From contig OZ024741.1 of NCBI GenBank assembly GCA_964016885.1, forward strand, positions 178,002,001-178,066,000: 64,000 nucleotides of DNA. The letters run 5' to 3'. Below are positions 2,100-38,429 of the stretch, piece by piece; within the stretch, counting starts at the first letter, position 1, and each line of letters begins with the position of its first letter. Origin of the DNA: Eledone cirrhosa. Taxonomy: Eukaryota. The notes beneath the pieces were generated by a model, which did not search any database, had not been told where the DNA came from, and worked only from the letters and a program-made list of their open reading frames with translations. The position numbers were made by a program, and so were the translations under genes.

Positions 2100-3300
2100 G
2101 TTCTTAAGGCTTAGTATATGGATGTCAGACATGGATAACGTATCGTTGGCATGTCAGGCGCCGCAAAGATTGATAATTTGCGGAACGTTCTTTTGAACCG
2201 ATAGATATATATCAAGTAGATCTTTCAAAGCTTAAACATGACGCTTTGTATTACTTTTTGTGAGCACTTTATTCTTTAATTCTGCAGCTTCTTTGATTGC
2301 GTGTTTATTTTGTCTTATCACTTGGTCTTTCACATGGAATTTGTTTTCTTATTTTAGATTTTATTGGAATATGCTTTTCTACAGCCAATGTATGTGCTTT
2401 AATGGAAGCTTGTATCCTGTGTTCAGTGTTACATCATTAGATATTTGAAGGAGAGAGCTAAGGTTACGTCCCACTGAGATGGAGTATCTGTTGCAAATGT
2501 CTAGATTCCTTAAGCCACCCAATGTTGTTATCGAGCATTTAGTCGAAGTTTTGCTGTAAGCCTTTTCTAGTCAGATGTGGAACTACAAGTGTTGTAAGAT
2601 TTACAGTGTACAGCACTATTAATCCATTTACTGTTTATAATTATGTAATTTCACCGCATTTCATTATCATTTGGATTATATGTTTAGCTCCTTCAATCAT
2701 TTTCTGAATGTCTGTACTTAGACAATCGAGTCAATTCTTTTTATGCATCCATGTTTCCATTTATATATGTGAATGGATTTGCTGGGTATCTGCAGATACG
2801 ATCTCACCCATGTTGTGCATTCAGATCTCCACCAGCTATTTTGATATTATGTTTATTTATGTATCTAGTTAGGTTTGGAATTACCATAACATTCGGTGAC
2901 ATCTTCGATTGTGACACTTGGAGGATTGTCATTATACGTTGTTACTATGATTCTAAGGGGAACATTTACAAAATAATTTAAGGCTTTCACTACCGAAGGG
3001 CATAGTATCATTCATACATCTCTAATTGATTGAAAACTTCCATACTGAGGTTGAAGCCATGGTTCATCCATTTCTACATTATTGATATTGAGATCAACAT
3101 GACATGTCAGGTGCTATTGAATACAAATAATATCAATATTTTGAGGCGCTGCAAGTGATGTGAGTTCAGGTATGTGGTCTAAATTGCTGAGAGTCTCAAC
3201 ATTAAAAGTGAAAATATTGACTTTGGAAATATTGATTGTTTGTGTACATTTAAAAGAAATTGTGTTGACTCTATAGCTGCCTTTTACGACACCACGGCCG
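2100..3300 (-). mobile_element. Possible highly decayed LINE reverse-transcriptase remnant
   Basis: Only a short motif on the minus strand (gactagaaaaggct, DLEKA-like, ~2558-2573); no ORF. Boundaries are approximate. Confidence 0.3.
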
Positions 3301-3870
3301 ACGTTGAGACTTCATCAGAAAGCGCTTTTTGTTCACCCGCGCAACGAGTGTTGCGGTTGAATTGGAAACGTGAGTCATAATGAATCGTTGAGTAGTTGAT
3401 TACACAACCATAAACTAGGTGATCCTAACCGTTGAACTCTTAGGGTTCCTCCGCTCAACATTAATATGAGAAGTAGAGTTTGCCCAGTTAATCTATCAGT
3501 TGCCTCTTCCCTATCAACCATGCTTTAGTTCCATGACGTTCCATGACATCTGTGCGCTTATGTTAGTTGATATATTAAATTATCTATATTTATCTCCAAA
3601 TCACTGATTTGTCGAGCAAACTTGCCAAAATCACTTCTAAAAAAATTTTTTGGGGTGTTAGTAGGCGTCAGTCATCTTACCATCCCATTCCTTCTAACTA
3701 GCCTCTGTGTCACGTGATTGATTCTTTAGAATCGGCCATTTGACCTGAAGCAGTGAGAATTTCGGTACATAGAATCCAGTCCTCGCCAGCTGTTCGATCT
3801 ACCGAATTATTATTATTTTTATATGAGCCGCCAGTGTCCGCGCATTGCCTGGAGACTTAACTGAGAATAG

Positions 3871-3952
3871 ACTCCCTGATGACGCAATGAATTCTCGACA
3901 GTTGGATTACGTAACTGTCTTTATCCCATTGCAGAAACTAATTAGTTGGAGT
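3871..3952 (+). ncRNA. Type I hammerhead ribozyme, unit 1 (GUU site, predicted cleavage after 3947)
   Basis: actcc-CTGATGA-c-gcaatg...cattgc-a-GAAA-ctaattag-TT-ggagt. Stem I is actcc/ggagt, stem II is gcaatg/cattgc plus gacagtt/aactgtc, and stem III is palindromic. Confidence 0.85.
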
Positions 3953-4427
3953 GAAAATTTAAGTAAGTAAGTAAAAAAATTTTTAAAAATTTTTTTTTAA
4001 ATATTTTCTTATTTTACGTCTTTTATATTATTGTTCTGCATTCTCCTGCATTGAACCACCTAGGTACTATGACATAACCTGTGTATTTGCTAGCATGGGC
4101 GTGCATCTGTGCGCTTATGTTAGTTGATATATTAAATTATCTATATTTATCTCCAAATCACTGATTTGTCGAGCAACCTTGCCAAAATCACTTCTAAAAA
4201 AATTTTTTGGGGTGTTAGTAGGCGTCAGTCATCTTACCATCCCATTCCTTCTAACTAGCCTCTGTGTCACGTGATTGATTCTTTAGAATCGGCCATTTGA
4301 CCTGAAGCAGTGAGAATTTCGGTACATAGAATCCAGTCCTCGCCAGCTGTTCGATCTACCGAATTATTATTATTTTTATATGAGCCGCCAGTGTCCGCGC
4401 ATTGCCTGGAGACTTAACTGAGAATAG

Positions 4428-4509
4428 ACTCCCTGATGACGCAATGAATTCTCGACAGTTGGATTACGTAACTGTCTTTATCCCATTGCAGAAACTAATT
4501 AGTTGGAGT
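4428..4509 (+). ncRNA. Type I hammerhead ribozyme, unit 2 (GUU)
   Basis: Same motif as unit 1. Confidence 0.85.
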
Positions 4510-4985
4510 GAAAATTTAAGTAAGTAAGTAAAAAACTTTTTAAAAATCTTTTTAAAAAATATTTTCTTATTTTACGTCTTTTATATTATTGTTCTGCATT
4601 CTCCTGCATTGAACCACCTAGGTACTATGACATAACCTGTGTATTTGCTAGCATGGGCGTGCATCTGTGCGCTTATGTTAGTTGATATATTAAATTATCT
4701 ATATTTATCTCCAAATCACTGATTTGTCGAGCAAACTTGCCAAAATCACTTCTAAAAACATTTTTTGGGGTGTTAGTAGGCGTCAGTCATCTTACCATCC
4801 CATTCCTTCTAACTAGCCTCTGTGTCACGTGATTGATTCTTTAGAATCGGCCATTTGACCTGAAGCAGTGAGAATTTCGGTACATAGAATCCAGTCCTCG
4901 CCAGCTGTTCGATCTACCGAATTATTATTATTTTTATATGAGCCGCCAGTGTCCGCGCATTGCCTGGAGACTTAACTGAGAATAG

Positions 4986-5067
4986 ACTCCCTGATGACGC
5001 AATGAATTCTCGACAGTTGGATTACGTAACTGTCTTTATCCCATTGCAGAAACTAATTAGTCGGAGT
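4986..5067 (+). ncRNA. Type I hammerhead ribozyme, unit 3 (canonical GUC, predicted cleavage after 5062)
   Basis: Same motif but GAAActaattagTCggagt. Confidence 0.9.
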
Positions 5068-5543
5068 GAAAATTTAAGTAAGTAAGTAAAAAACTTTTTA
5101 AAAATTTTTTTAAAAAATATTTTCTTATTTTACGTCTTTTATATTATTGTTCTGCATTCTCCTGCATTGAACCACCTAGGTACTATGACATAACCTGTGT
5201 ATTTGCTAGCATGGGCGTGCATCTGTGCGCTTATGTTAGTTGATATATTAAATTATCTATATTTATCTCCAAATCACTGATTTGTCGAGCAAACTTGCCA
5301 AAATCACTTCTAAAAAAATTGTTTGGGGTGTTAGTAGGCGTCAGTCATCTTACCATCCCATTCCTTCTAACTAGCCTCTGTGTCACGTGATTGATTCTTT
5401 AGAATCGGCCATTTGACCTGAAGCAGTGAGAATTTCGGTACATAGAATCCAGTCCTCGCCAGCTGTTCGATCTACCGAATTATTATTATTTTTATATGAG
5501 CCGCCAGTGTCCGCGCATTGCCTGGAGACTTAACTGAGAATAG

Positions 5544-5625
5544 ACTCCCTGATGACGCAATGAATTCTCGACAGTTGGATTACGTAACTGTCTTTATCCC
5601 ATTGCAGAAACTAATTAGTTGGAGT
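5544..5625 (+). ncRNA. Type I hammerhead ribozyme, unit 4 (GUU)
   Basis: Same motif as unit 1. Confidence 0.85.
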
Positions 5626-6037
5626 GAAATTTAAGTAAGTAAGTAAAAAACTTTTTAAAAATTTTTTTAAAAAATATTTTCTTATTTTACGTCTTTTATA
5701 TTATTGTTCTGCATTCTCCTGCATTGAACCACCTAGGTACTATGACATAACCTGTGTATTTGCTAGCATGGGCGTGCATCTGTGCGCTTATCTTAGTTGA
5801 TATATTAAATTATCTATATTTATCTCCAAATCACTGATTTGTCGAGCAAACTTGCCAAAATCACTTCTAAAAAAATTTTTTAAACATTTTTTTGAAAAAT
5901 ATTTTCTTATTTTACGTCTTTTATATTATTGTTCTGCATTCTCCTGCATTGAACCACCTAGGTACTATGACATAACCTGTGTATTTGCTAGCATGGGCGT
6001 GCATCTGTGCGCTTATGTTAGTTGATATATTAAATTA

Positions 6038-6086
<49 letters not shown>

Positions 6087-8480: not shown

Positions 8481-8921
8481 ATTTATTAAAATAACAGATT
8501 AAAGTTTAAGCAAGGAATCGCTGCTTTCACCCTTAACGGGATCTTCTGAAACGAACGAAGTCAATCTGTAAACGCAGAAGTGGATATTTCAAAAACCGTT
8601 GCTCTACGGTTCTTATATATTTGATTTATCCTTATCGAGCCCTCTTTGGATTTTAGTCTTCAAATTTATTATTATTACTATTATTATTATTATTATTATT
8701 ATTATTGAATGCCATGGTTGACGGAGGCTCGGCTCTGTAAGTTATAGTAATTTTTAACCGTTAAAACAATTGTAAATTGTTTAAAACTTGAACCAAATTG
8801 TTGATAAAGACACCCTCCTCCTCGTGAGAGGGGTCTTTCTGTCCGTTATTTGGCCCTTTGGGGTTAAATAACCAGTTATTGGGGTTTTGTACCCAAAATT
8901 TCATTTTAAACAAAAAACAAC

Positions 8922-11020
8922 ATGGCTACGAAAAAGAAATTTCATACGTCACTCCCACTCATTCCGTCTTCTTCTTCCTCAATCATCACTACAGCAGAGA
9001 GAAGATTGTCTCTCCCCCCCCCCCTTCTTTAAATGTGTCTCTCTCCCTCCCTTCTCTTTCGCAAGTGACGAAAGAAAAGAAAAGTCTCGTGCAAAGCGTG
9101 CAAGGTTTCTCCACGACGACGACGACAGCGACGAAACAGGTGTGCGGGAAATACGAAAACCCAGTTCATTCGTCTGACGTCAGGAATAATAGCAGTAGCA
9201 GCCGTAATAACAACTGCAACAGTGACAATGAAAACAACAGTAGCAGCCGCAACAGCATCACCAGCAGCATAAACAACAACAGCATTAGCAGCAGCAACAC
9301 CAACAACAACCACAGCAACAGCGGCGGAGGCAGTAGTCGTAGTACCTGCAGCAACAACAAAAGTACCAGCAGCTCTGACGACAACAACAACAGCAGAGAA
9401 AAACCAATCTCATTTGCAGGTATTGCGAAAAACTTGGAAACAATCCTCATAACAAATGAGGAATTAGAGGAAGCGAAGAAGATGGTGACAAAGAACGGAC
9501 ACCGAGCAATCTGCAAGGCAGCGGAAAAATTTTTCAAAACCCAAGAGCACTGTACGGTCACGTACCGTACAGTAAGTACAAAATCCCGTAGGGTGGAAAG
9601 AGCCACAGAGGCCCAAATACAAAAAGCCTTGGGGTCTGTGTGGCAGCGGAAAACGCACATCACCCGAGGCAAAAAATATGCCACCGTAGACGTACTTTTT
9701 GCCACACCCCAGGAGGCAAAGGCCCAATCAGTAGTGACCCTAAGGAGCGAGGAAATGGTGTTGGTGCCCTCCTACTGCGGGCAAAAAATTGTGAGGGTCA
9801 AACTGACCCACGTCCCCCCCGGAATGACCCCTTCTTGGCTGGCCGCGTCTGTCCTAATCGGAATCGAGGACAAAACAACTGTACTGCAAGTACAGAAAAA
9901 AGTAAGAGAAGATTGGGTCGGCTCCTCCATTGAGATGCTAATCCAAACCAACCAGGAGTGCATCGAAGCTATCCCGGATGTGATAGACTTCGATAACGGC
10001 ACTCAACTGCCCATAAGTGTTGAGGGCAAACGCCCGAAATGCTTTCGCTGTGGATCGAAGACTCACCTCAGGGCCTTCTGCAACGAGAAGACCCTGAGAA
10101 AGGAGAAAACCCCCCTCCTTCCGAATCCGGCTCCACGGCTACCAGCAACAGGACAAGCGGCAACCAGGAACGATAGGCCCGTGGCACCCATACCCACTCC
10201 ACGGAAATCAAAAACAGCAGCAGCAGTGGAAATACTTACAACAACAACAGCAATACCAAATGCAGCTGCAACAGAGACTCCAGTGCAAACATCACCAACA
10301 ACAACAAGTGAAAGAGTGGAGCTGGTACCCCTCCCCGACCTCACAGAATCAGACATGGAGTGTGAGGTGGGAGAGAGGTGGCAAAAGGTCGTAAGAAGGC
10401 ACAAACGCAGAAGCAGCGCATCGTCGCCTTTGAAAAGGGAGGAAAGAAATGAGAAAAGGGTAAAGTCTACTGCAAAGAGACCCACAGCAGCAACAACACC
10501 AACACCATCACCACCCACACTAGCGCCACCATCACCACCGGCGACAACCCCACCGCCAACAACACCTTCAACACCACCACCACAAGCACCAACATCGCAA
10601 ACACAACAACAAAACGCACACACCCAGCAACAACGACAAGAAAATAGCAGAACCACACCCCACCCCCAGAAAAACAAATGCACGGCAATAAATACACACA
10701 ACAAGAAACTAATGACTTACATAATTGAACACACAGACATTTCACAACAGGACTACATAATACCAGCACCAATCAAAACGCCAACTAACATAATACTGCT
10801 AAAAATAGCACAGAAACAATACACAAATATTAAAACGAAATTCCCCAACGCAGTTGGTGATTTCAGGGACCTAGGAGGAACCATCAATCGAAGAGTATAC
10901 TCAGACATTCTCTTAGAAGAGCCGACGACCAGCCGAAGGGACGATTCAACGGTCCCTTCACCAGACGATCAAGTGAAAAGGGATGTAAAAACCATCCCTC
11001 CTCTACCAAAAGTACGGTAA
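8922..11020 (+). CDS. LINE ORF1, gag-like protein with CCHC zinc knuckle (probable 1-nt frameshift in C11 run at 9014-9024)
   Basis: Open frame 8858-11020 with CFRCGSKTHLRAFC (CX2CX4HX4C), an Asn/Ser-rich N-terminus and a Pro/Thr-rich C-terminus. The likely start ATG at 8922 is in another frame until the poly-C run. Confidence 0.85.
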
Positions 11021-11055
11021 GTGGTCTTTCCCATCTTTTCCACTCTATTTTAAAC

Positions 11056-14000
11056 ATGACCTCACTCAGAATAGGCAGCATAAATGCGCGTGGCTTGGGG
11101 TCGTCATGGAAGCAGGGTCACCTGCTCAACGACCTCAGGTCACTAAACATAGATGTAGTGGCCATCAGCGAGACCAGAATCTCCGAAGCACGGGCCTTCG
11201 CACCGATCTTCGGCGGCTACGATGTGTACGCATCTCCCAGCCGTCCTGGATCGGGTGGAGGAGTTGCTGTGCTTTTTCGGAGAGGTTTGGATCTCGCCAT
11301 ACGGGCCATCTTCCTGGACCCAGAGGGTAAGCTGGTGGTGCTGGACGTGACCAGCGGAGACGGGCAAGCTTTCAGGCTAGTGGCCGTCTATGCCCCGACA
11401 GGAGCAGGGCGGCCTGATTTCTTCCGGCGTCTGGAGACCTTTCTTGGAACGTCCCGCTCTTTAGTGTTAGTGGGCGACTGGAACGGGATCTTAGATGCAC
11501 GCTGGGACTGTGTGGGATTAGCGGATAGGGGTGGAGGGTGCAAGAGCCTCACCAACCTGCTCAGGCGTTTTGAACTGTCTGACAGGTACCGATTGGATTT
11601 CCCGAATGTGCCAATGTGGACTTGGACAAACCGCATAGGGTCATCCAGATCATATCTAGATAGAGTATTTTGTAGGGAAATAGATAGGTCTAGCATAGGC
11701 TGTCCACAATTCAAGATAGTCAGCTACACGGACCACAAATTCGTGACCTGTGTGCTTGACTTAGATAGGCTTCATAGACGAGGACCCGGCTACTGGAAGC
11801 TAAACGCGTCCTTACCAGCGCGCAAGGCCTACAGAGACCGGATTAGCGAACTAGTTAAGCGGGCGTTGACGGGGGCCATCGTCAACAACAAGTGGTGGTT
11901 TGCTCTGAAAAGAGCGATTAGAATAGAATCGATTAGGTTTAGTAAGGCTTTAGCAATAGAGAAAAATAGAGCAGAGGGAGAACTAGTTAGAAAATTAGAC
12001 GAGGCGCTTAGCAAAGGCATTGCGACCGACGTGCTTGCGGCGAAATTGGCCCTTGACCAATTCTTCAATGCAAAGCACGAAGGCTGCGTTGTCAGAGCTA
12101 GGGTGCGTGCTCTCAGACACGAGGGGACGAAAGCCGTTCAATGGGCCCGAGTGGCGGAGGCGCGTCGTGGCAACAAAGCCACGATCCGGTCTTTGGTGGA
12201 CCACGACGGGCGCATGCTACTCGATCCCGGGCAAATGTGTGAAGCTTTTCAGCGACACTTCGCTCAGCTGTTCGGGGGCAGAGGGGGGCCGAGTAGAGGG
12301 ATGGACTTTAGTGTCTACCTCGACGGACTGCCGCGGCTCTCGGCCACTGAGGCGAAGTGTTGCGAAAAGCCGATAACAGCCGCTGAAGTACGGGAGGCAA
12401 TGACTGGCTGCACAAGGGGTAAATCGCCTGGTTTGGATGGTCTGCCCTATGAACTTTACGTACAGATGCCAGACTTGTTCGGAGGCCTCTTGGCGGACGT
12501 CTACTGCAACTGGCAACAGAACGGGAGAATTCCCAGTTCTGTGAGCCGAGGAGCGGTGGCACTGCTGAGAAAGGATCCGAACAAGGGGGATAACATAGAC
12601 AATTTCCGGCCCATAACTCTGCTAAACACAGAGTTTAAGATTTTGGCCAAGGTGCTAGCAAAGAGGTTGGCGCTTGTCGTTGGTGGTCTGGTGGGAGAGG
12701 CGCAGACATGCGCCATTCCCGACAGATCCATCCACGACAACCTCCACCTCATGCGATACATCGTAGAGAGGGTAGCTAGGGAACCTGGCACGGGTGGGTC
12801 CTTGATCAATTTAGATCAGTCGAAAGCTTTCGATAGGGTCGACCATCGTTACCTAGCGGCCGTCCTGAGGGCGGCTGGCTTTGGGCCCGTCTTCAGAGGC
12901 TGGATCGCTGCCATGCACAGCGACATCTGCTCTGTGGTGAGAGTGAACGGTCACCTGTCGGAACCGTTCAACATCATGCGCTCGGTCCGCCAAGGATGTC
13001 CCCTCTCGTCCCTCTTGTACGTATTGACTCTCGAGCCATTACTGCACAAACTGGAGACGTTGAGGGGAGTCCCGCGCGAACTAGGATGCGGAAGATCCGT
13101 GTCAGCATATGCGGACGATGTCACCGTAGTGGTGTCGAACGCCAAACACATCGAGGCGATCGGCACTACACTAAGAGAATACGAAGCGGTGACAGGAGCA
13201 ATGATCAACCAGGAAAAGTCAGTGGGCCTGCAGCTCGGCACCTGGAGAGGCAGGTCCATGCCGTCCAACAGCGTCGTCGGGCGCTGGACGGACGGACCGG
13301 TTAAATTGCTAGGGGTCTGGTTCGGTCCGGACCTCCAGACGGACAAAAACTGGGACGAGGTGACGAGCAGGGTGGCTTCTCTCACCCAGAAATGGGCGGA
13401 GAGGAAGCTATCCCTGAAAGGTCGAGCGGAGGTGGCTAACGCGTACATCGCGTCTGTCATCTGCTACCGCCTAACCGTCGTACCTTGTCCTAAGCCTCGC
13501 CTGACTGCGCTGGAGCGTTTGCTCTTTCGCTTTTTGTGGAAGGGACGTGCTCCGATGGTCAGGCGGTCCATCTGTTGTCAACACCCGCTACGTGGAGGGC
13601 TGGGCATGCCGTGGCTGATGATGTGCAGGCACGCGCTCAGGCTACGACATCTCCACCTCTTCCTCGACGGTGATCAGGTGTGGTCGCCGTTTGCTAGACG
13701 CGTTTTTCCCCAGCTCGTTTCCTTGACGGAGCTGCAGTCCTGGGTCAAGCGAAGACCGAGAGGGAGCGCCTGGAGACTGGAATGTCTTCAGGCGCTCACC
13801 GCCCTCGACCAATCGGGCAATGTGATCGGTGGAAACTCCACCTCGGCGTTCTATAGAGGATTAGTGGAGGGGAAGAGCGACGACGTACTTGGGGAAACTC
13901 TAGGCGTCGACGAAAATCAACTAGCCAATCTCTTCGGAAGAACTTTCGGGCCAGGGCCTATGGACAACTTCCAGAAATCTCTGGCCTGGCAGTGCTACCG

Positions 14001-14475
14001 AGGAGCCTTGCCAGTTCGGGATAAACTCTACAGGCATGGAGGTGCCGTCAGCCGGGCATGTCCGAGATGCGCGCAGGGCGACGAAACCGTCCTGCACGCA
14101 CTCGTCCAGTGTCCGAAAATTGCTGACTTGTGGGTTTATGTCGAACACCTGCTGTAGCGTTTAGGACGGATCCAGCTATCATCTGAGTCTATCGTGAGGA
14201 TTGCCCCGCCCTCTTCCTTTAGCCGGGAAGGGCAGGCAGTTTTTATCTGTCTGGTGGCCATGGCGAAAGAGATAGTATGGTGGACACGTTTGAAAGGGCT
14301 GAAGACGAGCACTTACCTCTTCGGTGATGCTCTGATTGACTTTTTCAAATTTCATTTAAAAAGGAAAATCAGAGTAGAGAAGGAAGTGCTCTCTTCCCAG
14401 CATTTTGTTGAAAGATGGGTGAGAGAAGCAAGAATGGCCCGAGTGAATGGGCCGACTCTGAGTATATATCTGTAA
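11056..14475 (+). pseudogene. LINE ORF2 (APE endonuclease + reverse transcriptase + C-terminal zinc finger) with one premature stop at 14155-14157
   Basis: Motifs SINARGL, ISET, VYAP, GDWN, YLDR, TDH (APE); KSPGLDG, FRPITLLN, LDQSKAFDRV, VRQGCPLS, AYADD (RT); CPRC...ETVLHALVQC. ORF 14194-14475 is in the same frame after the TAG. Confidence 0.95.
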
Positions 14476-14802: not shown

Positions 14803-14872
14803 ATATAGCAAACAGCACGAATACTCTTTTATTCCTAATTAAACCATTTTTCAGCATTTTCTATTCCGTTTA

Positions 14873-15143
<271 letters not shown>

Positions 15144-15447: not shown

Positions 15448-15487
<40 letters not shown>

Positions 15488-15578
15488 CGAAGGAAATGTG
15501 GTAAGGAACCAGGTGGACCATAACGCACCAAAGTACTCAATACTTGAGGTAGTAGAGTGGGTAATAGGAACCAGTAAG

Positions 15579-15672
15579 ACCCCGACAGCTGAGCTCAAGC
15601 CGTTTCGACGGCTAATTCTGGACTAAATGAAAATTTATCCTGGTATTTAAATAGCCGATCTTCTCAAGGGGT
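15579..15672 (-). ncRNA. Variant type I hammerhead (U3-A8 core) in PLE terminal repeat
   Basis: Reverse complement of the motif at 18148-18241. Confidence 0.75.
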
Positions 15673-16782
15673 AATTCCATATATGGTCAAAGTGATTGTC
15701 AAAAATCAGTAGTAATTCTGTGGTTGCAAATTAGTAGGGGAGATGGTGGCTAAACCTGCCAGTAGGAGAAAGAGGGGAGGGGGTGGAGTAGACCCAATCA
15801 AGCGTTGGTAGTGCCAGCTACAGCTGGGCATGAGGTCAAAGAAGATACAGGGGAGGGGGAGGGGGAGGAAGTCGGAACGGTAGGTAGAACAATGGGGGGT
15901 AGAAATATATAGGAAAGAAAAAATACTGAGAGTGAAGAAAAGCAAATAAGTGTAAAGAAAAAAGTAAAGTAAATTAAATTCTACGACCTAGGTCTCAGGC
16001 TATTGCTAGGCTAGAATAAAATAAATAAAGAAAGAAAGAAGTAAAGAAATAAATAAATAAAGAAATAACGAAATAAGTAAAAGAACTAGGTGGGACGGAT
16101 TAGGCAAGGACCCTTTTAAGAGGTATAAGTACGTAAATGATACGGTGACGGGTCAACAAAAGGGGCCAAAATATTAAAGAGACTACCACGAAATAAACAA
16201 TAAAGGTTTCCATCCCGGGCCAGCAACGACCCAGTGCAGCAAAGTGAACTTGTACGAGATAATAATTCTGAGTCCCGAGAAAAATATATACTAATGCTAA
16301 CTCTAAAAGATCTAAAACAAGCTACATGAAAGTTCGTACGAAATAAAGGTAGAATACGGAGAAATAAATTCAGAATCCACCCCGCCCAGAACAAAAGCGA
16401 AGCAAGAAATACTGAAACGAAAAAATAAGGCATAAGTGCCACTAAGAAATATAGAAGGCACAGAGAATAGTGGGAGCGGTCGGAAAAAGGGGGCAAGTAT
16501 CCGGGGTCTAAGCCAACTGCTATAAAGGGCGGAGTCCGCCAAATCTATCATAGACTAGGGGAGGGTGTGGGGGGTACTAAGGCTACATGGGGCCAAAGGG
16601 CAGCCTCGGGTGGGCGAGAAAAGACGCCGACAAAGGAGAAGAGCTGGGGTAGAAGGACTAAGGAGAGAGGGGGGAAGGAAATAAAGGAAGCGATAAAAGA
16701 ATACAAAGAAGATCTTACGTCTTCCTTGGCAAGCAGGGGTTACCCATTGCAAAATCGGCAAGTGGGGTGTTATAGCCCTAGT

Positions 16783-17448
16783 CTACCCCCCCCCCCCCCC
16801 CCCCGGGTCATTATGGGGTTTGAGGGCGAGGTAAGTCCTACGCAATCTATGTTTACATGCAGTAACCAGTTCATCTTTCTTGTTTAGGAGTTGGTCCGTC
16901 GAAAACAGCATTTGTAAAGTTTCCTCCGAGCATAAATTGCACGGACGGCGTCCTCCCGTGTAAGAATTGGCTCTGGACAGTAATCTCCAAGTGAGATCAT
17001 AGGTGATGTTGTTGTCCTTGAGGTCCCATATGTGGCCCGAAAGTGTAGTGGCGTGACGCCGGGCCGGGTTTCGGAAGGTATGTCTATGTTGGTATAGCCG
17101 GGTCTTGAAGTCACATGCGGTAAGTCCTATATAGGCTTTGTTGGAGGTATCCGTCCTCACGTTGCACTGGTAGATCACATTACGGTCTCTGCATCTATTG
17201 TCGAGTGGGCAAATAGATCTATCCGGGCAGTTACACCTCCTGGTCGGTTCTCCACTGCTATTTAGGTTATTTCTGCCATCGGGCTTGAGTTTTTTGTTGT
17301 TAGAGGAGACGATGTTTTGTGCGAAGTTTGGTGTAGTGCTGTAAGAGAGTTTGATGGTATTTTTGTTAATTATGTTGTGGTAGCGGTGTTGTAATGGGAA
17401 GTGTTTTTCAATGAGCCTAAAGAATAGTTTCCCGATGGGAATTGTCAC
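16783..17448 (-). CDS. PLE C-terminal linker + GIY-YIG endonuclease (5'-truncated fragment)
   Basis: KLSYS, CNCPDRSICPLDNRC, VIYQC...YIG, FKTR, CNLCSEE, LLNKKDE, CKH. Confidence 0.9.
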   Translation of the reverse strand: MTIPIGKLFFRLIEKHFPLQHRYHNIINKNTIKLSYSTTPNFAQNIVSSNNKKLKPDGRNNLNSSGEPTRRCNCPDRSICPLDNRCRDRNVIYQCNVRTDTSNKAYIGLTACDFKTRLYQHRHTFRNPARRHATTLSGHIWDLKDNNITYDLTWRLLSRANSYTGGRRPCNLCSEETLQMLFSTDQLLNKKDELVTACKHRLRRTYLALKPHNDPGGGGGG

Positions 17449-18147
17449 CTTATTTATTTCTCCGTATTCTACCTTTATTTCGTACGAACTTTCATGTAGC
17501 TTGTTTTAGATCTTTTAGAGTTAGCATTAGTATATATTTTTCTCGGGACTCAGAATTATTATCTCGTACAAGTTCACTTTGCTGCACTGGGTCGTTGCTG
17601 GCCCGGGATGGAAACCTTTATTGTTTATTTCGTGGTAGTCTCTTTAGTATTTTGGCCCCTTTTGTTGACCCGTCACCGTATCATTTACGTACTTATACCT
17701 CTTAAAAGGGTCCTTGCCTAATCCGTCCCACCTAGTTCTTTTACTTATTTCGTTATTTCTTTATTTATTTATTTCTTTACTTCTTTCTTTCTTTATTTAT
17801 TTTATTCTAGCCTAGCAATAGCCTGAGACCTAGGTCGTAGAATTTAATTTACTTTACTTTTTTCTTTACACTTATTTGCTTTTCTTCACTCTCAGTATTT
17901 TTTCTTTCCTATATATTTCTACCCCCCATTGTTCTACCTCCGTTCCGACTTCCTCCCCCTCCCCCTCCCCTGTATCTTCTTTGACCTCATGCCCAGCTGT
18001 AGCTGGCACTACCAACGCTTGATTGGGTCTACTCCACCCCCTCCCCTCTTTCTCCTACTGGCAGGTTTAGCCACCATCTCCCCTACTAATTTGCAACCAC
18101 AGAATTACTACTGATTTTTGACAATCACTTTGACCATATATGGAATT

Positions 18148-18241
18148 ACCCCTTGAGAAGATCGGCTATTTAAATACCAGGATAAATTTTCATTTAGTCC
18201 AGAATTAGCCGTCGAAACGGCTTGAGCTCAGCTGTCGGGGT
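18148..18241 (+). ncRNA. Variant type I hammerhead (U3-A8 core), predicted cleavage after C18236
   Basis: acccc-TTGAGAA-gatcggcta...tagccgtc-GAAA-cggct(tgagctc)agctg-TC-ggggt; all three stems pair. Confidence 0.75.
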
Positions 18242-18754
18242 CTTACTGGTTCCTATATATATATATATATATATATGTCTAACATTTTGAATGACCCTCC
18301 AAAAACCGGGGGTTGCTTCCCTTGCTGGAATTAACACGTGACAACTATAGATACGATACGCTGCATTTATCAGCAACATTAACCTATCACCCCTTTCTGA
18401 GTAGAAAGAATAGACTGGTGAAAAACTGAATCCTCCGTTCGATCATGAATACCACGAGCTCGCCAGTCACGTAAGTCTGATATTTGATTTCGGATTTCAA
18501 AGAAACACTTTAAACGTATAATCGTTTGATTTGTCCAGGTGTATTTTTCTCAACCTGTTAGTTCTATCGTTACTTTGGTATATTATTGTGTGTTAGATAT
18601 TGCCTACCACAATGTTCGATTTGTCAAGCTATTTAAACGTATGTTATTACTCTAAGGACCTAACTTATCGAGTGCTTTGCTAACTCATCATTTCATATAA
18701 GTAGGCCGATTTTGCTTGCAATCGCCAGAGATTCTATTTTATTAAATTTCCAAT

Positions 18755-26199: not shown

Positions 26200-27510
26200 A
26201 TATTATACTGATTTCCTAAAGCTGATCAAATCTCCTGATGTATACTAGGTTCATTTTGGAGCGTTGACTATTTTTTGTGGCTGATGTCACAAGAGCAGTT
26301 AAAGAGCTCAAATATGGCGAGAGCGCTGGGGGAGATTATTCCGGCTCGTGATGTAAAAAGCCTTAAATAGAGAAGGTAATCTCTTGCTGACTCGCATGTG
26401 CTGGGTAGACCGGATGTCTGGAAAGGCACCTAAACAATGGTAATCAAGAGTGGTAATCCCAATTTTCGGAAAGGGATACTAAAGAGATTTGTTTCCAATT
26501 ACAGAGGGTTATCCTTGTTAGATTTCCCCGGCTAAGTGTCTGACAACGAGAAGTAGGGAAATTGTCGTGCCCCTATTAGCTGGTATACAATGCAGCTTTC
26601 ACTCCGGACGCAGCACAGCCGAGTAAATATGTGGGAGTTCGACTTACCATGGGTGCGTGCTCTCACCACTTCTGTTCAGTATTCTTATGAACAGGATTTA
26701 GATGCGCAGCTCGGTTGGAAGTGGTCTCACGACTAACAGGTGTAAAGTCAGTCGGCTGGAATGTGCAGACCACTTGGTATTACTTAATGTGACAGAAGGT
26801 GATCACTGACATGCACTTCATAGGATTAATGCCAAATGCTCCCTGGCTGGAATGAAAATCAGTGCGGCGAAAACTGAAAACTCGTCCTCTCAAGGAAGCC
26901 TGTGCAATGCAGTCTACGTGTAACTTGATTTCCACATAAGCAGATGGAGATGTTCAAGTATCTCAGAGTCGTGTTCGTGATGAAGGCAGGTGGATTAATT
27001 CAGTGTAAGAATTGCAGGAGTACGTGAAGTAATGCGTCAGCCTCATCATTCGCTAGAAGGGAGGTAGGTATAACGGACAAACTTGTTAATTTTCATTCGT
27101 ACTGATCCCTAGGAATGGTCATGAATCTGAGGAAATGACCAGAGGAATGCGATTGTGGATACACGCGGCCGAAATGGGGCTCCTCCGAAGGGTCTTTGGA
27201 GTAATAGTACTTGATAGTGTGCGTAGCTCGGAGGTCAGAGAAACACTCCATATAGAGCCACTACTTCTCCAAATTTAGAGAGCACAGCACTGATACTACG
27301 ATCATAAGGTTAGAATATCACAAGAAAGAATCGCTGGACAAATTTCACAGGCAAATCAACCCAAGGGAGACAGAGAGTTAGACCCCGAGTAAGATGGTTA
27401 GAAAACATCCACAATCTTGGCTGGTCACGCTTGAAGGTTATGCCAGATCAGTTGGAACGGTAGCTTCTGACAGGGCCCGCTCGCGAAAAAGTGGGCGAAC
27501 AAGAAGAGGA
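26200..27510 (+). mobile_element. Decayed RTE-clade LINE (RT and 3' end)
   Basis: NYRGLSLL (26498), GRSTA, ADHLVL, FKYL and AAEMGLLRR motifs in order; same family as 53400-55560. Confidence 0.75.
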
Positions 27511-27616
27511 TATATATATATATAACGAAGGAAATGTGGTAAGGAACCAGATGGACCATAACGCACCAAAGTACTCAATACTTAGGGTAGTAGAGTGGGT
27601 AATAGGAACAAGTACG

Positions 27617-27712
27617 ACCCCGACGGCAGAGCTCAAGCCGTTTCGACGACTATTTCTGGACTAAATAAGAATTATTAGCCTGGTAAATAAATAGCCGAAC
27701 TTCTCAGGGGGT
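27617..27712 (-). ncRNA. Variant hammerhead-like motif (CUGAGAA core) in left pLTR
   Basis: acccc-CTGAGAA-gttcggcta...tagtcgtc-GAAA-cggc(ttgagctct)gccg-TC-ggggt. Confidence 0.6.
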
Positions 27713-28659
27713 AATTCCTTACATGGGAAGATAGTAATTGTCAAAAGGATTGGTCAAAAATGTGTTGTAAAGAGAGATGATTCTATCATGGCAGTTAGTG
27801 GGAGGTAGGGGTAGCTGAACTTACCGGTAGAACAAACAGGGAGTGGGGGAAACCCAGGCAAGCGTTGAAAGTGAAATCTATACAGCAGATTCTAAGGATA
27901 GTGTATAGAAGGTCGAAGAAAGTGAACTGGAGAAGGGGAGGGGGTAGTTCAAAGAATAGATAAATCGAAAGGGAGTAAACAAAAACCATTATAAAATTGA
28001 GGAAATAAATATATTAAAAAAACAATTTCTGGTTACTACTCTATCCCCACAATCACCAAATCTCTCATTGGTATTGCTAAGCTATAGAAAAGTTTAATAG
28101 GTGGAGAAAAATTCTAAATACGAGATTGTAGTGAAATAATTTTATAAAGCCGGTTTTACAGGGGTCTAACACCACTGCTATAGTTAGTAGTAATCAGCCA
28201 ATGCTATCTTACAATGACAGGTTAATAAGTTGAGAATAAACATACTAAAATACTACTACAAAAATAATAATACGAAATATTAATTTAGAATACTAATGCA
28301 TAAATACTAATACAAGAATACTAATACAAAAATACCACTAAGAAATTTAGAAATCACGGAAATGGAGCAGCAACAGAAAGATGACAATTTACTGGGGTCT
28401 AACACATCTGCTATAAAAAGCGTAATCGGCCAATTCTATCTTAAATTTAGAGAGGTGGGGGTACTGAGGCTATACAGGACCGATGGGCTGCATCGGGGGG
28501 GGGGGGAGAGGAAAAAAAAGACAAGGAAGGAGATCTGAGGTGGAAGGACTACGAAGAGATGGGTGGAAGAAGGAAATATAGAGGAAAAGATAAAAATGTT
28601 ACGTCCACCTTTGTAAGCATGGGTTACCCCTTACAAAATCCACAAGTGGGGTGTTTCCA

Positions 28660-30583
28660 CCCTTGTCTACCACCGGGTCATTATGGGGTTTGAGAGCGAG
28701 GTAAGTCCTACGCAATCTGTGTTTGCATGCAGTTACCTGTTCGTCTTTCTTTTTTAGGAGATGGTCCTTCGAAAACAGCATTTGTAATGTTTCCTCCGAG
28801 CATAAATTACACGGACGGCGTCTTCCCGTGTAAGAGTTAGCTTTTGGACAGTAAGCTCCAAGTGAGATTGTAGGTTATATTATTATCTTTGTGATCCCAG
28901 ATGTGGCCCAAAAGTGTAGTGGCATGACGCCGGGCCGGGTTTCGGAAAGTATGTCTGTGTAGGTAGAGCCGGGTCTTGAAGTCACAACCGGTTAATCCTA
29001 TATAAGCTTTGTTGGAGGTGTCCGTCCTCACGTTTTACTGGTAGATCACATTACGATATCGGCATCTGTTGTTGAGGGGGAAAAGGAGTCTATCAGGACA
29101 GTTACACCTCATGGTCGGCTCTCCACTGCTGTCTAGGTTATTCCTTCGAGAGGGGTGGAGTTTTTTGTTGTTAGTGGAGCCGATGTTTTCTGCGAAGTTA
29201 GATATTGGTGTTGTAGGAGAGTTTGATGGTGTTTTTGTTGATTATGTTGTGGTAGCGGTGTTGTAGTGGGAAGTGTTTTTCGATGAGCCTATAGAAGATT
29301 CTCCCGATACGTGTTGTCACCTCGGTATTGTGGGGAGGATTGCACCACGTTACGTTGCGTGAGCGGCCGTGTCGCCTGCTGGTTCCGCTAATGGAAGCTG
29401 GATAATTGGATATTTCCTCCCGGAAGCCACTCCGCTTGAGGGCCTGGTTGTAATAAGGCGCATGTTCATCGAATATCTGCTCAGTAGCGGACAAACGAGA
29501 TATGCGGAGGGAGATGTTTTTAACCAGGTTATTGGTGATGTTTCTAGGATTGTTCGACCGGCGGTGGATGTAATGCAGGTTGTCATTTTGTTTCCTGTAT
29601 GGGTAGTACAGATCATTATCGAGGTTAAGGGTAACATCCAGGAAGTTTACTCGGGTTAGGGACGTTTGTAGGGTTATTTTAAATCCACAGTCTCGGAAGA
29701 AGCTGATTAATTGTTTACGGACCCGGTCTGTACTACTGGGGTTGTACCCTTTGAGAGTAAAGAGCCCATCATCACGGTACAAACCATCGCCGATTGCAGG
29801 AAACATTTCGGTGAGTTTAAATAGTAGGAATAATCCTATAAGATCTGTTACCTCAGTCGAATCCGTCGCGCCCATACTGACGTCGAAGGGGGAGTCAGGG
29901 GCTCTCTTTATCCATTTGGAGTTGTCGAAAAGTAGGACTGACTTCCAGGCGTGGAGGATGATATTTCTTTCCTGGTCGGTGATGGGCGTGAGTCTTTCGG
30001 CAAATAAAGGAGCCTAAGTTAATTGATGCATAGTAACTCTCTATGTCAAACTGGATGAATTTTGTGTCTCGTTTGTCCTCCATATTGCTGAACCATGAGA
30101 TTACTTCCTGGGTGTTGACCCACAGGCTAAGTCTCGCGTTTTGTTTAACTTTTGGTATAAAGCGGTCTAGGATATTTTTACTGATTCTCCCTATGTCGGA
30201 CTTCGTTGGGTTTATAAGCCTGATGGATGGTTTACGGTCGAAGTCGGATTTGTGGTCCTTCAATAAGAAGTAGGGATCCGTGGGTTACGGGGTTCAGTGC
30301 GGATTGCGAACCCCGAGGCTGGAGGTAATTTGTTGTCCATTTCGATTTATGTTCTCGATACTTGAATGGTTAGCCTTTTATAGGTGGAGTTTAGGCTGCT
30401 CCTGATCAGTGTGTGGTATCTGTCGGGGTTGACGAAGTAGAGGTTTCCAGTTTTGTCCGAGTGCACCATGATGTCGTTGGTGTTTTCATACTCTGTTAAT
30501 TTGCTACGGAGTTTTTGTAGGAATCTGTTGTGTCTGGGTTTGAATTTAATGCTCTTGACCAGTTGGAAAAGGTTATTCTCAAG
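28660..30583 (-). pseudogene. PLE RT + GIY-YIG, left arm (frameshifted, lacks the first ~75 codons)
   Basis: SDKT, RLINPTKSDIG, FIQFDIESYY, MGA, GLYRDDGL, VNFLDVTL, YPYRK, YIGL across ORFs 30347-30637, 29895-30263, 29198-29875 and 28837-29031. Confidence 0.92.
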
Positions 30584-30599
30584 TTCCTTCACCCGCACC

Positions 30600-32767
30600 A
30601 TGCGAAAATACAACATCGATTTCTCCACCAAGAACATTCCAGTTTCACCGAGAAAACTTTACCTTCGGATGCTCACGCAAAAAATAGACCTCTTAGCGAA
30701 AAGACTAAGGTGGAGAACTTTTTTCTACGACAGATATTGCGACAATCAGGTCTTCGATACCAAGGAGTGATTCGGATTTAATACCTACAAATCTCTCCCA
30801 CCGAACCCTATGCTCTCACCCTTCGAGAATGACCTTTTCCAACTGGTCAAGAGCATTAAATTCAAACCCAGACACAACAGATTCATACAAAAATTCCGTA
30901 GCAAATTAACCGAGTATGAAACACCAACGACATCATGGTGCACTCGGACTAAACTGGAACCTCTACTTCGTCAACCCCGACAGATACCACACACTGATCA
31001 GGAGCAGCTTAAACTCCACCTATAAAACGCTAACCATTCAAGTATCGAGGACATAAATCGAGATGGACAACAATTTACCTCCAGCCTCGGGGTCGCCGAC
31101 TACACTGAACCCCGTAACCCACGGACTCCCTACTTCACACTGAAGGAACACAAATCCGACTTTGACCGTAAACCATCCATCAGGCTTATAAACCCAACGA
31201 AGTCCGACATAGGGAGAATCGGTAAAAAAAACTCCTAGACCGCGTTATACCAAACGTTAAGCAAAACGCGTGACTTAGCCTATGGGTCAACACCCAGGAA
31301 GTAATCTCATGGTTCAGCAATATGGAGGACAAACGAGACACAAAATTCATCCAGTTTGACATAGAGAGTTACTATGCATCAATTACCTTACCGCTGCTTA
31401 CGGCCGCCTTGGACTTTGCTGAAACATTCAGGCCCATCACCGACGAGGAAAGAAATATCATCCTCCACGCCAGGAAGACAGTCCTACTTTTTGACAACTC
31501 CAAATGGAATTAAGAGAGCTTTTGACTCCCCCTTCGACGTCAGTAAGGGCTCGACGGATTCGGCTGAGGTCACAGATCTTATAGGATTATTCCTACTATT
31601 TAAACTCACCAAAATATTTCCTGCATTCGGCGGTGGATTGTACCGTAATGATGGACTCCTTACCCTCAAAGGGTACAACCCCAGTAGTACAGACTGGGTT
31701 CGTAAACAATTCATCAGCTTCTTCCGCGACTGGGGATTTAAAATAACCCTACAAACGTACCTATTTCGAGTAAACTTCCTGGATGTTACCCTTAACCTCG
31801 ATAATGAGCTGTACTACCCATACAGGAAACCAAATGACAACCTGCATTACATCCACCGCCTGTCGAACAATCCTAGAAACATCGCCAATAACCTGATTAA
31901 AAACATCTCCCTCCGCATATCTCGTCTAGTTTGTCCGCTAATGAGCAGATATTCGACGAATATGCGCCTTATTACAACCAGGCCCTCAAGCGGAGTGGCT
32001 TCCGGGAGGAAATATCATATTATCCAGCTTCCATTGGCGGAACCAGCAGGCGAAACCGCCGCTCACGCAACGTAACGTGGTGCAATCCTCCCCACGATGC
32101 CGTGGTGACAACATGTATCGGGAGAATATTCTTTAGACTCATCGAAAAACACTTCCCACTACAACACCGCTACCACAACATAATCAACAAAAGCACCATC
32201 AAACTCTCCTACAGCACCACAGCTAACATCGCAAAAACATCGTCTCTTCTAACAACAACAAATTAAACACCTATGGAAGAAATGACCTAGACAGCAGTGG
32301 AGAGCCGACCAGGAGGTGTAACTGTCCTGATAGATCTCTTTGCCCCCTCAACAACAGATGCCGAGATCGCAATGTGATCTACCAGTGCAACGTGAGGACG
32401 GATACCTCCAACAAAGCTTATATAGGATTAACCGGTTGTGACTTCAAGACGTGGCTCTACATACACAGACATACCCTCCAAAACCCGGCCCGGCGTCATG
32501 CCACTACACTTTCGGGCCACATCTGGGATCTCAAAGATAATAATATAACCTACAATCTCATTTGGAGCTTATAGTCCAAAAGCTAACTCTTACACGGGAA
32601 GACGCCGTCCGTGTAACTTATGCTCGGAGGAAACATTACAAATGGTGTTGTTGAAGGACCAACTCCTAAACAAGAAAGACGAACAGGTAACTGCATGCAA
32701 ACACAGATTGCGTATGACTAACCTCGCCCTCAAACCCCACAATGACCCGGTGGTAGACAAGGGCTGA
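30600..32767 (+). pseudogene. PLE RT + GIY-YIG, right arm, complete from ATG but with stops and frameshifts
   Basis: Starts MRKYNIDFSTKNIPVSP...KRLRWRTFF, then FIQFDIESYY, GLYRNDGL, VNFLDVTL, CNC..CP..C, IYQC..YIG, CNLC. Confidence 0.92.
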
Positions 32768-33727
32768 AATACACCACTTGCAGATTTTGTAAGAGGTAAC
32801 CCATGCTTACAAAGGTGGACGTAACTTTTTTCATCTTTTCCTCTATATTTCCTTCTTTCCCCCATCTCTTCCTAGTCCTTCCACTCCAGATCTCCTTCCT
32901 TGTCTTTTTTTTCATCTTTTCGCCCACCCCGATGCAGCCCATCCGTCCTGTATAGCCTCAGTACCCCCACCCCTCTAATTTTAAGATAGAATTTGCCGAT
33001 TACGCTTTTTATAGCAGATGTGTTAGACCCCAGTAAATTGTCTTCTTTCTGGTTGCTGCTCCATTTCCGTGATTTCTAAATTTCTTAGTGGTATTTTTGT
33101 ATTAGTATTCTTGTATTAGCATTTTTGCATTAGTATTCTAAATTAATATTTCGTATTAGTATTTTTGTAGTAGTATATTAGTATGTTTGTTCTCAACTTA
33201 TTAACCTATCATTGTAAGATAGCATTGGCTGATTACTACTAACTATAGCAGTGGTGTTAGACCCCTGTAAAACCGGCTTTATAAAATTATTTCACTACAA
33301 TCTCGTATTTAGTATTTTTCTTCACCTATTAAACTTTTCTATAGCTTAGCAATACCAATGAGAAATTTGGTGATTGTGGAGATGGAGTAGTAACCAGAAA
33401 TTGTTTTTTTAATATATTTATTTCCTCATTTTTATAATGGTTTTTGTTTACTCCCTTTCGATTTACCTATTCTTTGAACTACCTACCCCCCCCCCCCCCC
33501 TTCCCTTCTTCAGTTCACTTTTTTCGACCTTCTATACACTATCCTTAGAATCTAATGTATAGATTTCACTTTCAACGCTTGCCTGGGTTTCCCCCACTCC
33601 CTCTTTGTTCTACCGGTAAGTTCAGCTACCCCTACCTCCCACTAATTGCCATGATAGAATCATCTGTCTTTACAACAACATGTTGACCAATCCTTTTGAC
33701 AATTACTATCTTCCCATGTAAGGAATT

Positions 33728-33823
33728 ACCCTCTGAGAAGTTCGGCTATTTATTTACCAGGCTAAAAATTCTTATTTAGTCCAGAATTAGCCGTCAAAAC
33801 GGCTTGAACTCTGCCATCGGGGT
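33728..33823 (+). ncRNA. Decayed hammerhead-like motif in right pLTR
   Basis: CTGAGAA core retained but GAAA>AAAA and GUC>AUC; probably inactive. Confidence 0.45.
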
Positions 33824-34035
33824 CATACTTGTTCCTATATATATATATAGAGAGAGAGAGATTAGAGCAAAAATCACGAGCACTCTATCTAAAAATTATT
33901 TTAGAAAAGCCTCAGAAATGCGCAACCGGTAAAAACTTAATACTAAAACTGAATACTTATTACTCATTTATACTTATTCCTAATTAAACTATTTTTCACT
34001 GGGAAAACATTTTCAGCATTTTCTTTTCCTTTTTA

Positions 34036-37439: not shown

Positions 37440-38429
37440 CCTAACAGTAGACTATGGAACTGTGGATTAACACTACAGACAAGAGGGCTCAACACTCCAC
37501 TCACACTACGCTAAACCCATTGCCTCCAAATACCTGATACTCAAAAACTCAACAATGTCCAGTAGTGTTAAGTTTACTATTCTGATCGCAGACTGGTACG
37601 AGTGGTGAAGAACGTGTCGCGAATGTGCGACCCAACAGAGATGGAAAGACACATCCAACACGTGATCCACCGCATGCAGTTCTCTGGCTACAACCAAAGA
37701 GACAGAATCAGAGTATACGATGAAGCCACAGAGTAGTATAAGACCCTCATAGAACTGGACATGAAAGGAATTTTCCCATTATACAGGAGCAAATTATGGA
37801 ATAGCTCAGATAGGGCTAAATATAAGATAGGGAAAAGCACTTCATGTTACAACAAGCAGAGATACCAGAGTGTCATGTTCGTGGACGCTAACCCTGGAGG
37901 GATATTAACAAACCAGTGTAGAAAGGCCCTGAGAAAGACCCACTTAAAGATTAAAGCTGTAGAAAAGCCAGGAACTACCATAAAATCCCTGATCAGCAGA
38001 ACATACCCTTTTAAGAAAACCCACTGTACTAATAGGAAATGTATTATATGTAAAGTAAACCACCGGAAAAACTGTAAAACGAGAAACATAGTCTATAGCA
38101 TAAGATGTAAAGATGGAACTTGCAGAAACATGACAACAACATACATAGGCGAGACATCTCGTAGCATAGGAGAAAGGATAGACCAAAACTGGGGGGAAAT
38201 AAAACGACGAAAAAACGGTTCAGTACTATACGAACACGCCAGACAACAGCATGACGGTAACATAGACAACATAGAAATTAAAATAATATCTAAACATAGA
38301 AATGACCCAACACATAGGCAAATCAGAGAGGCAAGTGAAATAGAACTTAGAAGGCCAAAGCTAAACAGAAAAAATGAAGTGAATAACAACAACACCCAAA
38401 CAAACAATACTGACTTAAGAGAAATATAA
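37440..38429 (+). pseudogene. PLE C-terminal RT region + GIY-YIG endonuclease (a different family)
   Basis: HYAKPIASKY...RMQFSGY...PLYRSKLW upstream. ORF 37761-38429 has CTNRKCIIC, IVYSIRC, YIGETSRSIGER, RQIREA, LNRKNE. Confidence 0.85.

What the first reader, a model, noticed from the sequence alone, without database searches (positions are those of the whole stretch)
27525..33835. Giant PLE palindrome: the whole RT/GIY-YIG ORF is duplicated head-to-head with a ~240-bp spacer
Seen: ~3-kb arms, each with different stops and frameshifts, so they have diverged since formation and a simple assembly fold-back is unlikely. The right arm starts only ~16 nt before the ATG, directly abutting the 5'-truncated left arm. 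Established: inverted pLTRs are usual in PLEs, but they normally cover terminal sequence. Inference: two near-complete cDNAs primed from opposite target strands and joined at their 5' ends. Read-through would give a ~3-kb dsRNA hairpin (an ADAR or siRNA substrate) bounded by ribozyme-like motifs. Comparing the arms should reconstruct an intact ~720-aa protein.
Basis: partly seen in the sequence, partly recalled or inferred. Interest (0 to 1): 0.7.

Follow-up and report, generated by a model that had tools for sequence, protein, structure and literature searches.

The report
Long head-to-head Penelope retroelement insertion
This 6.3-kb mirror-image repeat is two decayed copies of a common jumping gene (a Hydra-type Penelope-like retroelement) joined head to head, which is this family's usual layout with unusually long arms, and the defects that both arms share suggest they were likely copied in one event from the same, already broken template.

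Summary
The palindrome is in the sequence. Arms 27602-30580 (-) and 30825-33838 (+) are 93.9% identical around a 244-bp spacer, which is the right arm's own ORF start. It is a Hydra-clade Penelope-like element in (TA)n, from a family of hundreds to thousands of copies. The layout is the family norm: 53 of 80 sampled loci have a head-to-head junction, and 44 of 47 resolved ones carry the 80-nt tail on exactly one arm, as here. Inverted 5'-truncated copies are published for PLEs, and the scan found them before on other DNA of this genome. Only the length stands out: shorter arm 3.06 kb, next 2.3 kb. The arms share 14 substitutions found in no other sampled copy and two frameshifts, so they have one origin and are not separate insertions. 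Comparing them cannot rebuild an intact protein. Private changes are neutral and symmetrical, with no A-to-G excess. The hammerhead-like motif has a non-canonical core and is damaged in the right arm. Transcription and the junction were not testable with reads. Best reading: two target-primed cDNAs from one defective template. Rival for the shared defects: arm-to-arm conversion.

The parts
27522..27601 (-). 80-nt 3' tail of the left arm (ends at distal start site 2), abutting (TA)n
   Evidence: absent from right arm; same tail on one arm in 44 of 47 resolved junctions
27602..30580 (-). Left arm: 5'-truncated Hydra PLE copy from codon 76 through the 3' UTR
27617..27712 (-). Hammerhead-like three-stem motif, core CUGAGAA...GAAA...GUC (non-canonical at position 8)
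   Evidence: family alignment; MFE three-way junction, z -1.9; no Rfam hammerhead hit here
28657..30580 (-). Left ORF remnant: YRDD intact, one stop (29037), indels near 30378 (shared), 30309, 30277, 30015, 29211, 28850 (shared); lower bound approximate
30578..30580 (.). Head-to-head junction, 3-nt microhomology CTC
30581..30824 (+). Single-copy spacer = 5' part of the right copy (leader, ATG at 30600, codons 1-75, stop at 30768)
30600..32767 (+). Right ORF remnant (telomerase-like RT, CxCx5C linker, C-terminal endonuclease); YRDD reads YRND; four stops; frameshifts near 30919, 30957, 31025 (shared), 31509, 31924, 32234, 32578 (shared)
30825..33838 (+). Right arm (duplicated part), ends at proximal start site 1 without tail, abutting (TA)n
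33728..33823 (+). Hammerhead-like motif of the right arm, damaged (GAAA core and stems I and III changed)
27508..27523 (.). (TA)n target, left side
33836..33848 (.). (TA)n target, right side; no target-site duplication can be read

Best explanation
This is a decayed, head-to-head insertion of a Hydra-clade Penelope-like retroelement in a (TA)n repeat, likely made in one event in which the element's enzyme would nick both target strands and start one cDNA at each of two fixed sites 80 nt apart on the same, likely already defective, template. Shown: one arm ends at site 1 and the other at site 2; each arm holds sequence the other lacks; the junction has a 3-nt microhomology; both arms share locus-specific defects; later changes are neutral, about 3% per arm. 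Inferred: both cDNAs ran almost a full unit (3.26 and 3.06 kb) and were joined at their far ends through the microhomology; the protein came in trans, because the shared frameshift near codon 143 precedes the RT core. The locus is now inert as a protein-coding unit.
For: Family layout: 63 head-to-head junctions at 53 of 80 fetched loci. 44 of 47 with both ends resolved have one tail end and one site-1 end (P 2e-10 against independent choice; 16 unresolved). The tail is on the shorter arm in 18 of 25 simple pairs (P 0.04), as here. Junction overlap is 1-6 nt in 31 of 63. One source: 14 shared substitutions absent from all other sampled loci in 2974 sites (4.7/kb), against 0.07/kb for 150 cross-locus pairs. 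A three-variant pattern matches only the two arms genome-wide with 0 or 1 mismatch, as does a pattern with the second frameshift; the family-type pattern has 544 matches. Shared frameshifts occur in 1 of 40 and 0 of 52 other copies; shared ORF substitutions are 4 synonymous to 9 non-synonymous, like singletons (300:941) and unlike common variants (44:18). Private differences are not depleted near shared ones (74 observed, 66 expected), which a rough simulation finds unlikely for conversion tracts of 30 nt or more (P <= 0.02). Young sister-family palindromes share 1 unique variant in 4780 sites. In vitro, a Poseidon PLE nicks and extends both strands and starts at two sites that bound the tail (PMC11167929).
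Against: No source or sibling copy with the shared variants was found, which a defective-source model would like to see; decay and loss of the source could hide it. Shared unique variants are commoner in older pairs (1.8/kb) than in young ones (0.2/kb), as conversion over time would give; both samples were picked by similarity, which biases against unique variants. 7 of 25 simple pairs have the tail on the longer arm. Microhomology also fits snap-back priming. The in vitro work is on another clade and reports no homology between target and start site, whereas both ends here finish on TA.
Confidence: 0.6

Rival explanations
1. Same single two-primer insertion, but from an intact template; the shared defects arose later by arm-to-arm gene conversion, early or in very short tracts.
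For: No third copy carries the shared variants. Shared variants look neutral. Shared variants rise with pair age. Tracts of about 10 nt are not rejected (P 0.11). Long arms with a short spacer favour intrastrand pairing (general knowledge).
Against: No local loss of private differences near shared variants. Only 1 of the 14 unique shared variants lies in the first 1 kb next to the centre. A young palindrome with 1.2-kb arms and a spacer of about 50 nt shows 0 shared and 11 private differences.
Confidence: 0.25
2. One cDNA snapped back on itself at the CTC microhomology and copied itself (self-priming), with the ends trimmed afterwards.
For: Explains shared variants and microhomology directly. 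Self-priming was proposed for Adineta PLEs (PMC3846280). Short fold-backs turning near family positions 3190-3220 recur.
Against: The longer arm lacks the tail that the shorter arm has, so the shorter cannot be a plain copy of the longer; the tail is more often on the shorter arm. It needs an antisense template or an extra trimming step.
Confidence: 0.1
3. Two separate insertions, or an assembly artefact (fold-back or duplicated haplotype).
For: In the ORF the arms are no closer to each other (93.0%) than to the best other copies (93.9-94.5%). No read or contig spanned the junction in the runs available.
Against: Locus-specific shared variants. In the 3' UTR the left arm is the right arm's best genomic hit. 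Flanks are not duplicated, the arms end at different family sites and differ by 6%, and the junction is of the family type.
Confidence: 0.05

Closest known systems
Hydra clade of EN+ Penelope-like elements (Craig et al. 2021, PMC8557442): Hydra-1_Obim, Hydra-1_Ajap, Penelope-13_HM
   Same: RW(K/R), DKT, CxCx5C linker, CxxC and CxH around the endonuclease E and N, C-terminal endonuclease, (TA)n target; motif blocks match the supplement alignment by eye. Penelope-13_HM is listed with a 966-nt inverted 5'-truncated copy.
   Different: A different family from Hydra-1_Obim (by eye, no computed identity). Unit about 3.4 kb with a 1.1-kb 3' UTR against under 3 kb. Tail 80 nt against 30-40 nt. Hammerhead core non-canonical. 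GFNTY resembles the GxKF/Y motif said to be unconserved in Hydra. Inverted arm 3.06 kb.
Inverted-pLTR insertions of Penelope/Poseidon elements (Adineta Pen2a, PMC3846280; Anolis PAc, PMC11167929)
   Same: Head-to-head inverted copy, tail on one end, AT-rich target, two start sites.
   Different: There the inverted part is mostly a pLTR of about 200 bp; here it covers 90% of the ORF.
L1 twin priming (recalled, not from a call)
   Same: Both target strands prime cDNA; junction by microhomology.
   Different: L1 inversions copy non-overlapping parts of one RNA; here both arms copy the same 3 kb.

Membership tests
EN+ Penelope-like elements | Single ORF with telomerase-like RT | tested here: met
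   Open sister copy L053 gives 721 aa. Its model (pLDDT 91) has TERT as best match by Foldseek (E 7e-9) and VIA (Z 16.4, rmsd 3.9, 288 aligned). No Pfam or PDB sequence hit.
EN+ Penelope-like elements | C-terminal GIY-YIG endonuclease | tested here: inconclusive
   VIY...YIG, R, E and N motifs match the Hydra EN alignment by eye. Fold searches of the whole model were filled by RT matches; the domain was not folded alone.
EN+ Penelope-like elements | Partial tandems (pLTR), inverted 5'-truncated copy, one-sided tail | tested here: met
EN+ Penelope-like elements | Canonical hammerhead ribozyme in the pLTR | tested here: not met
   No CUGANGA core in the family's 3' end and no Rfam hit. A three-stem motif with CUGAGAA, GAAA and GUC is conserved at 90% or more per core position in 124 ends. 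Cleavage not testable.
Hydra clade | RWK motif and DKG changed to DKT | tested here: met
   RLRWR at 35 (K read as R) and DKT at 116 (definition)
Hydra clade | CxCx5C linker; CxxC and CxH in the EN; no CCHH | tested here: met
   CxCx5C at 571, CxxC at 669, CxH at 696; no cysteine pair inside the GIY-YIG core
Hydra clade | Insertion in (TA)n | tested here: met
   both ends of this locus and of the element at 15486-18256
Hydra clade | RT phylogeny with named Hydra references | not tested
   reference proteins were seen only as paper text and were not loaded into a tool
Naiad/Chlamys | N-terminal endonuclease | tested here: not met
   RT occupies about residues 1-480 and the nuclease motifs follow

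The most novel reading that the evidence does not exclude
Both halves of a PLE palindrome are written from one RNA molecule by two reverse transcriptases loaded at the two start sites, one following the other by strand displacement, and the RNA can be a dead copy served in trans. This would explain the one-tail rule, the tail's lean to the shorter arm and the shared frameshifts together. This locus, with 3 kb of overlap, is the most informative natural record of it in this family.
Probability: 0.35. Interest if true: 0.55.

Novelty: new member of a known kind. Interest (0 to 1): 0.25.

Why it matters
As a structure it is ordinary for PLEs and matters little. Its value is as a marker experiment. 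How PLEs build inverted ends is stated to be unresolved (PMC8557442, PMC11167929), and long overlapping arms let one ask whether the two halves came from one template. The answer here (same source, shared frameshifts, one tail) narrows the models and suggests a simple two-RNA test. A 3-kb dsRNA would matter only if the locus is transcribed, and there is no evidence either way.

Tried and rejected
Read support: contigs of four runs and RAD reads of three showed family-type sequence only and no cover at 30588-30623. The 'opposite strands' joint is family reads continuing into the normal ORF, not the junction. This is uninformative. No RNA holder was listed. ADAR footprint in the DNA: A>G against T>C is 2:4 (left), 6:5 (right) and 3:2 (shared), so rejected. 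Selenocysteine reading of the TGA at 30768: it is a private AGA>TGA change, so rejected. Different subfamilies: only 8 of 189 differences have both alleles common, so rejected. Twin priming on a genomic tandem: decayed tandem units would not share private changes, so considered unlikely. Splice-acceptor reading of the right arm's start (it follows a pyrimidine-rich AG in other copies): not testable, and long arms start at many other positions. Pfam on arm fragments, P0001 and three homologues gave nothing significant. The first majority-frame analysis lost frame at a homopolymer and was redone in the frame of an open copy. The first end tally (46 of 48; tail side 20 of 46; 18 of 22) walked into neighbouring inserts and was replaced, which still misclassifies a few loci such as L068. 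A Pfam scan of the 113-protein alignment was not obtained.

Full report
OBSERVATION. The inverted repeat is there: 27602-30580 against 33838-30825, 92.2% with gaps, 2789 of 2971 paired bases identical. The 244-bp spacer is not foreign DNA. It is the 5' part of the right copy, with the ATG at 30600. The left arm begins at codon 76 and has 80 extra bases at its outer end (27522-27601). Both outer ends meet (TA)n. The two copies share CTC at 30578-30580.

WHAT IT IS. Searches of the 3.0-Gb own genome gave 853, 3549, 1742, 2877 and 1776 candidates for five parts of the element; 40 were scored each time, so these are rough lower bounds. One of 80 fetched 10-kb loci has an open frame of 721 aa from the ATG. 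It has 2053 homologues at E <= 0.001 among 7995 scored. Its model, built from 113 sequences, has pLDDT 91 and matches telomerase RT best. The motifs RLRWR, DKT, YRDD, CxCx5C, YIG, CxxC and CxH are those given for the Hydra clade in PMC8557442 (section 11 read; passages; supplement rows and alignment blocks). No tree was built. Earlier scan notes call the host an octopus; I did not check this. In full-length copies the unit runs leader (about 66 nt), ORF, 3' UTR, site 1, 80-nt tail, site 2, often preceded by a partial tandem.

HOW UNUSUAL. Of 80 loci, picked as best hits to ORF and UTR queries and so enriched for one long arm, 53 hold 63 head-to-head junctions. 44 of the 47 with both ends resolved have one tail end and one site-1 end; 2 have none, 1 has two, and 16 are unresolved. 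The tail is on the shorter arm in 18 of 25 simple pairs. Shorter arms run from about 35 nt to 2079 nt, and a pair found later has 2.3 kb (L146). This locus has 3059 nt. Among 95 exact matches to a 29-mer near the ORF start, only this pair is adjacent and inverted (exact matching misses most copies). It is therefore the far end of a continuum. PMC8557442 describes the inverted 5'-truncated copy and one-sided tail as typical and lists a 966-nt case in a Hydra element.

ONE ORIGIN. Overall identity does not settle this: in the ORF the arms are 93.0% alike and the best other copies reach 93.9-94.5%. Rare variants do. The arms share 14 substitutions seen in none of the other 80 loci (4.7/kb). 22 other arm pairs share 30 in 16,741 sites (1.8/kb), and 150 cross-locus pairs share 15 in 206,717 (0.07/kb). 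Patterns holding the shared variants match only the two arms in the genome, while the family-type pattern matches 544 places. In the UTR the left arm is the right arm's best hit. Differences are private and symmetrical: 84 left and 95 right, with 25-28% synonymous, like singletons at 24% and unlike common family variants at 71%. That is neutral decay of about 3% per arm; no rate is available for a date.

SHARED DEFECTS. Both arms lack one base near codon 143 (1 of 40 other copies) and have one extra near 32578/28850 (0 of 52). Shared ORF substitutions are 4 synonymous and 9 non-synonymous. The right arm also has four stops, one in the single-copy spacer, and YRND for YRDD. The arms therefore cannot be combined into an intact ORF. 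Either the template was already dead, or conversion copied later mutations across. Against conversion: private differences within 40 nt of shared variants number 74 against 66 expected (other pairs 93 against 103). A rough constant-rate simulation predicts a ratio of about 0.5 for tracts of 100 nt or more and rejects tracts of 30 nt or more at P <= 0.02, but not 10 nt. Nine young pairs of a sister subfamily share 1 variant in 4780 sites with 30 differences. For conversion: no source or sibling was found, and older pairs share more than young ones; both samples are similarity-biased. I put it at about 70:30 for a defective template.

MECHANISM. Shown in vitro for a Poseidon element (PMC11167929, parts 1-2 of 4 read): both target strands are nicked and extended, reverse transcription starts at two sites that bound the tail, and a dimer is predicted. 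Shown here: the one-tail rule, microhomology, mutual exclusive sequence in the arms, and a common source. Inferred: one cDNA from site 1 ran to 22 nt before the ATG, one from site 2 stopped at codon 76, and their ends joined at CTC. Independent choice of start site would give equal ends half the time, so the two starts appear coordinated, most simply on one RNA. Plain snap-back (PMC3846280, passages) predicts the tail on the longer arm and cannot supply the tail here.

RIBOZYME AND HAIRPIN. A three-stem motif before site 1 is conserved in 124 family ends, with core CUGAGAA, GAAA and GUC. The left copy folds as a three-way junction (z -1.9); two other copies did not fold better than shuffles. 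It lacks the canonical G8 (canonical core recalled), Rfam does not score it, and the right copy has lost part of the core. There is no A-to-G excess. The window's long ORFs that I could place are other retroelements; a surrounding host intron was not tested. No RNA run was available.

NOVELTY. The structure and clade are known; the family is a new member. Five literature searches returned no paper on shared defects between PLE arms or on conversion between them; PMC9148063 was seen as a listing only, and bioRxiv 10.64898/2026.07.22.740005 as passages (its supplements are closed and were not used). The library omits most subscription papers. The scan had already noted such palindromes on other DNA of this genome and proposed two-primer models; a word search of its notes for the shared-defect idea found none. 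Interest 0.25.

Noticed in passing
window 15486-18256: A young sister-subfamily insertion with the same layout: 1.97-kb arm with tail, inverted 805-bp arm without, arms 99.75% identical, in (TA)n; many genomic copies at 98-99%. Here the tail is on the longer arm.
   Followed up: partly
L054, L088, L098, L105, L106, L107, L109 (for example L098:5565-5760): Recurrent stub palindromes of about 170-210 bp whose fold points cluster at family positions 3190-3220, inside the hammerhead-like motif; possibly a preferred stop or a non-autonomous form.
   Followed up: no
L049:2644-5337; L032:1110-5063; L076:1349-2618: Neighbouring inverted pieces only 67-85% alike, so some complex loci may join different subfamilies or be nested insertions.
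   Followed up: no
L036, L037, L039, L042, L048, L060, L069, L075, L076: Many long copies begin in or at the edge of the 66-nt leader between tail and ATG, as the right arm does; this may mark the RNA 5' end, but the sample was selected to include that region.
   Followed up: partly
L043 (tandem units) and L089: Direct tandem units share 16 otherwise unique variants in 1147 sites, and L043 shares 8 with the separate locus L089, which shows diverged sources with several daughters.
   Followed up: no
L053:4535-6868: A copy with an open 777-codon frame that stays open upstream of the ATG through leader and tail.
   Followed up: partly
window 8828-14157 and 60236-61872: A LINE with ORF1 (730-aa frame) and ORF2 (APE, RVT_1, zf-RVT; 1098-aa frame), and a decayed relative on the minus strand.
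   Followed up: partly
window 27000-27510: Left flank looks like the 3' end of an RTE-type LINE ending in the (TA)n that was the target (motif resemblance recalled; no Pfam hit).
   Followed up: no
window 37737-38429: 230-aa frame resembling the GIY-YIG end of a different PLE clade (recalled motifs; no Pfam hit).
   Followed up: no
window 3416-6048: Tandem array of 557-558-bp units, about 99% identical, four or more copies.
   Followed up: no
window 33870-34035 and 14805-14878: A short dispersed repeat sits next to (TA)n beside both PLE insertions.
   Followed up: no
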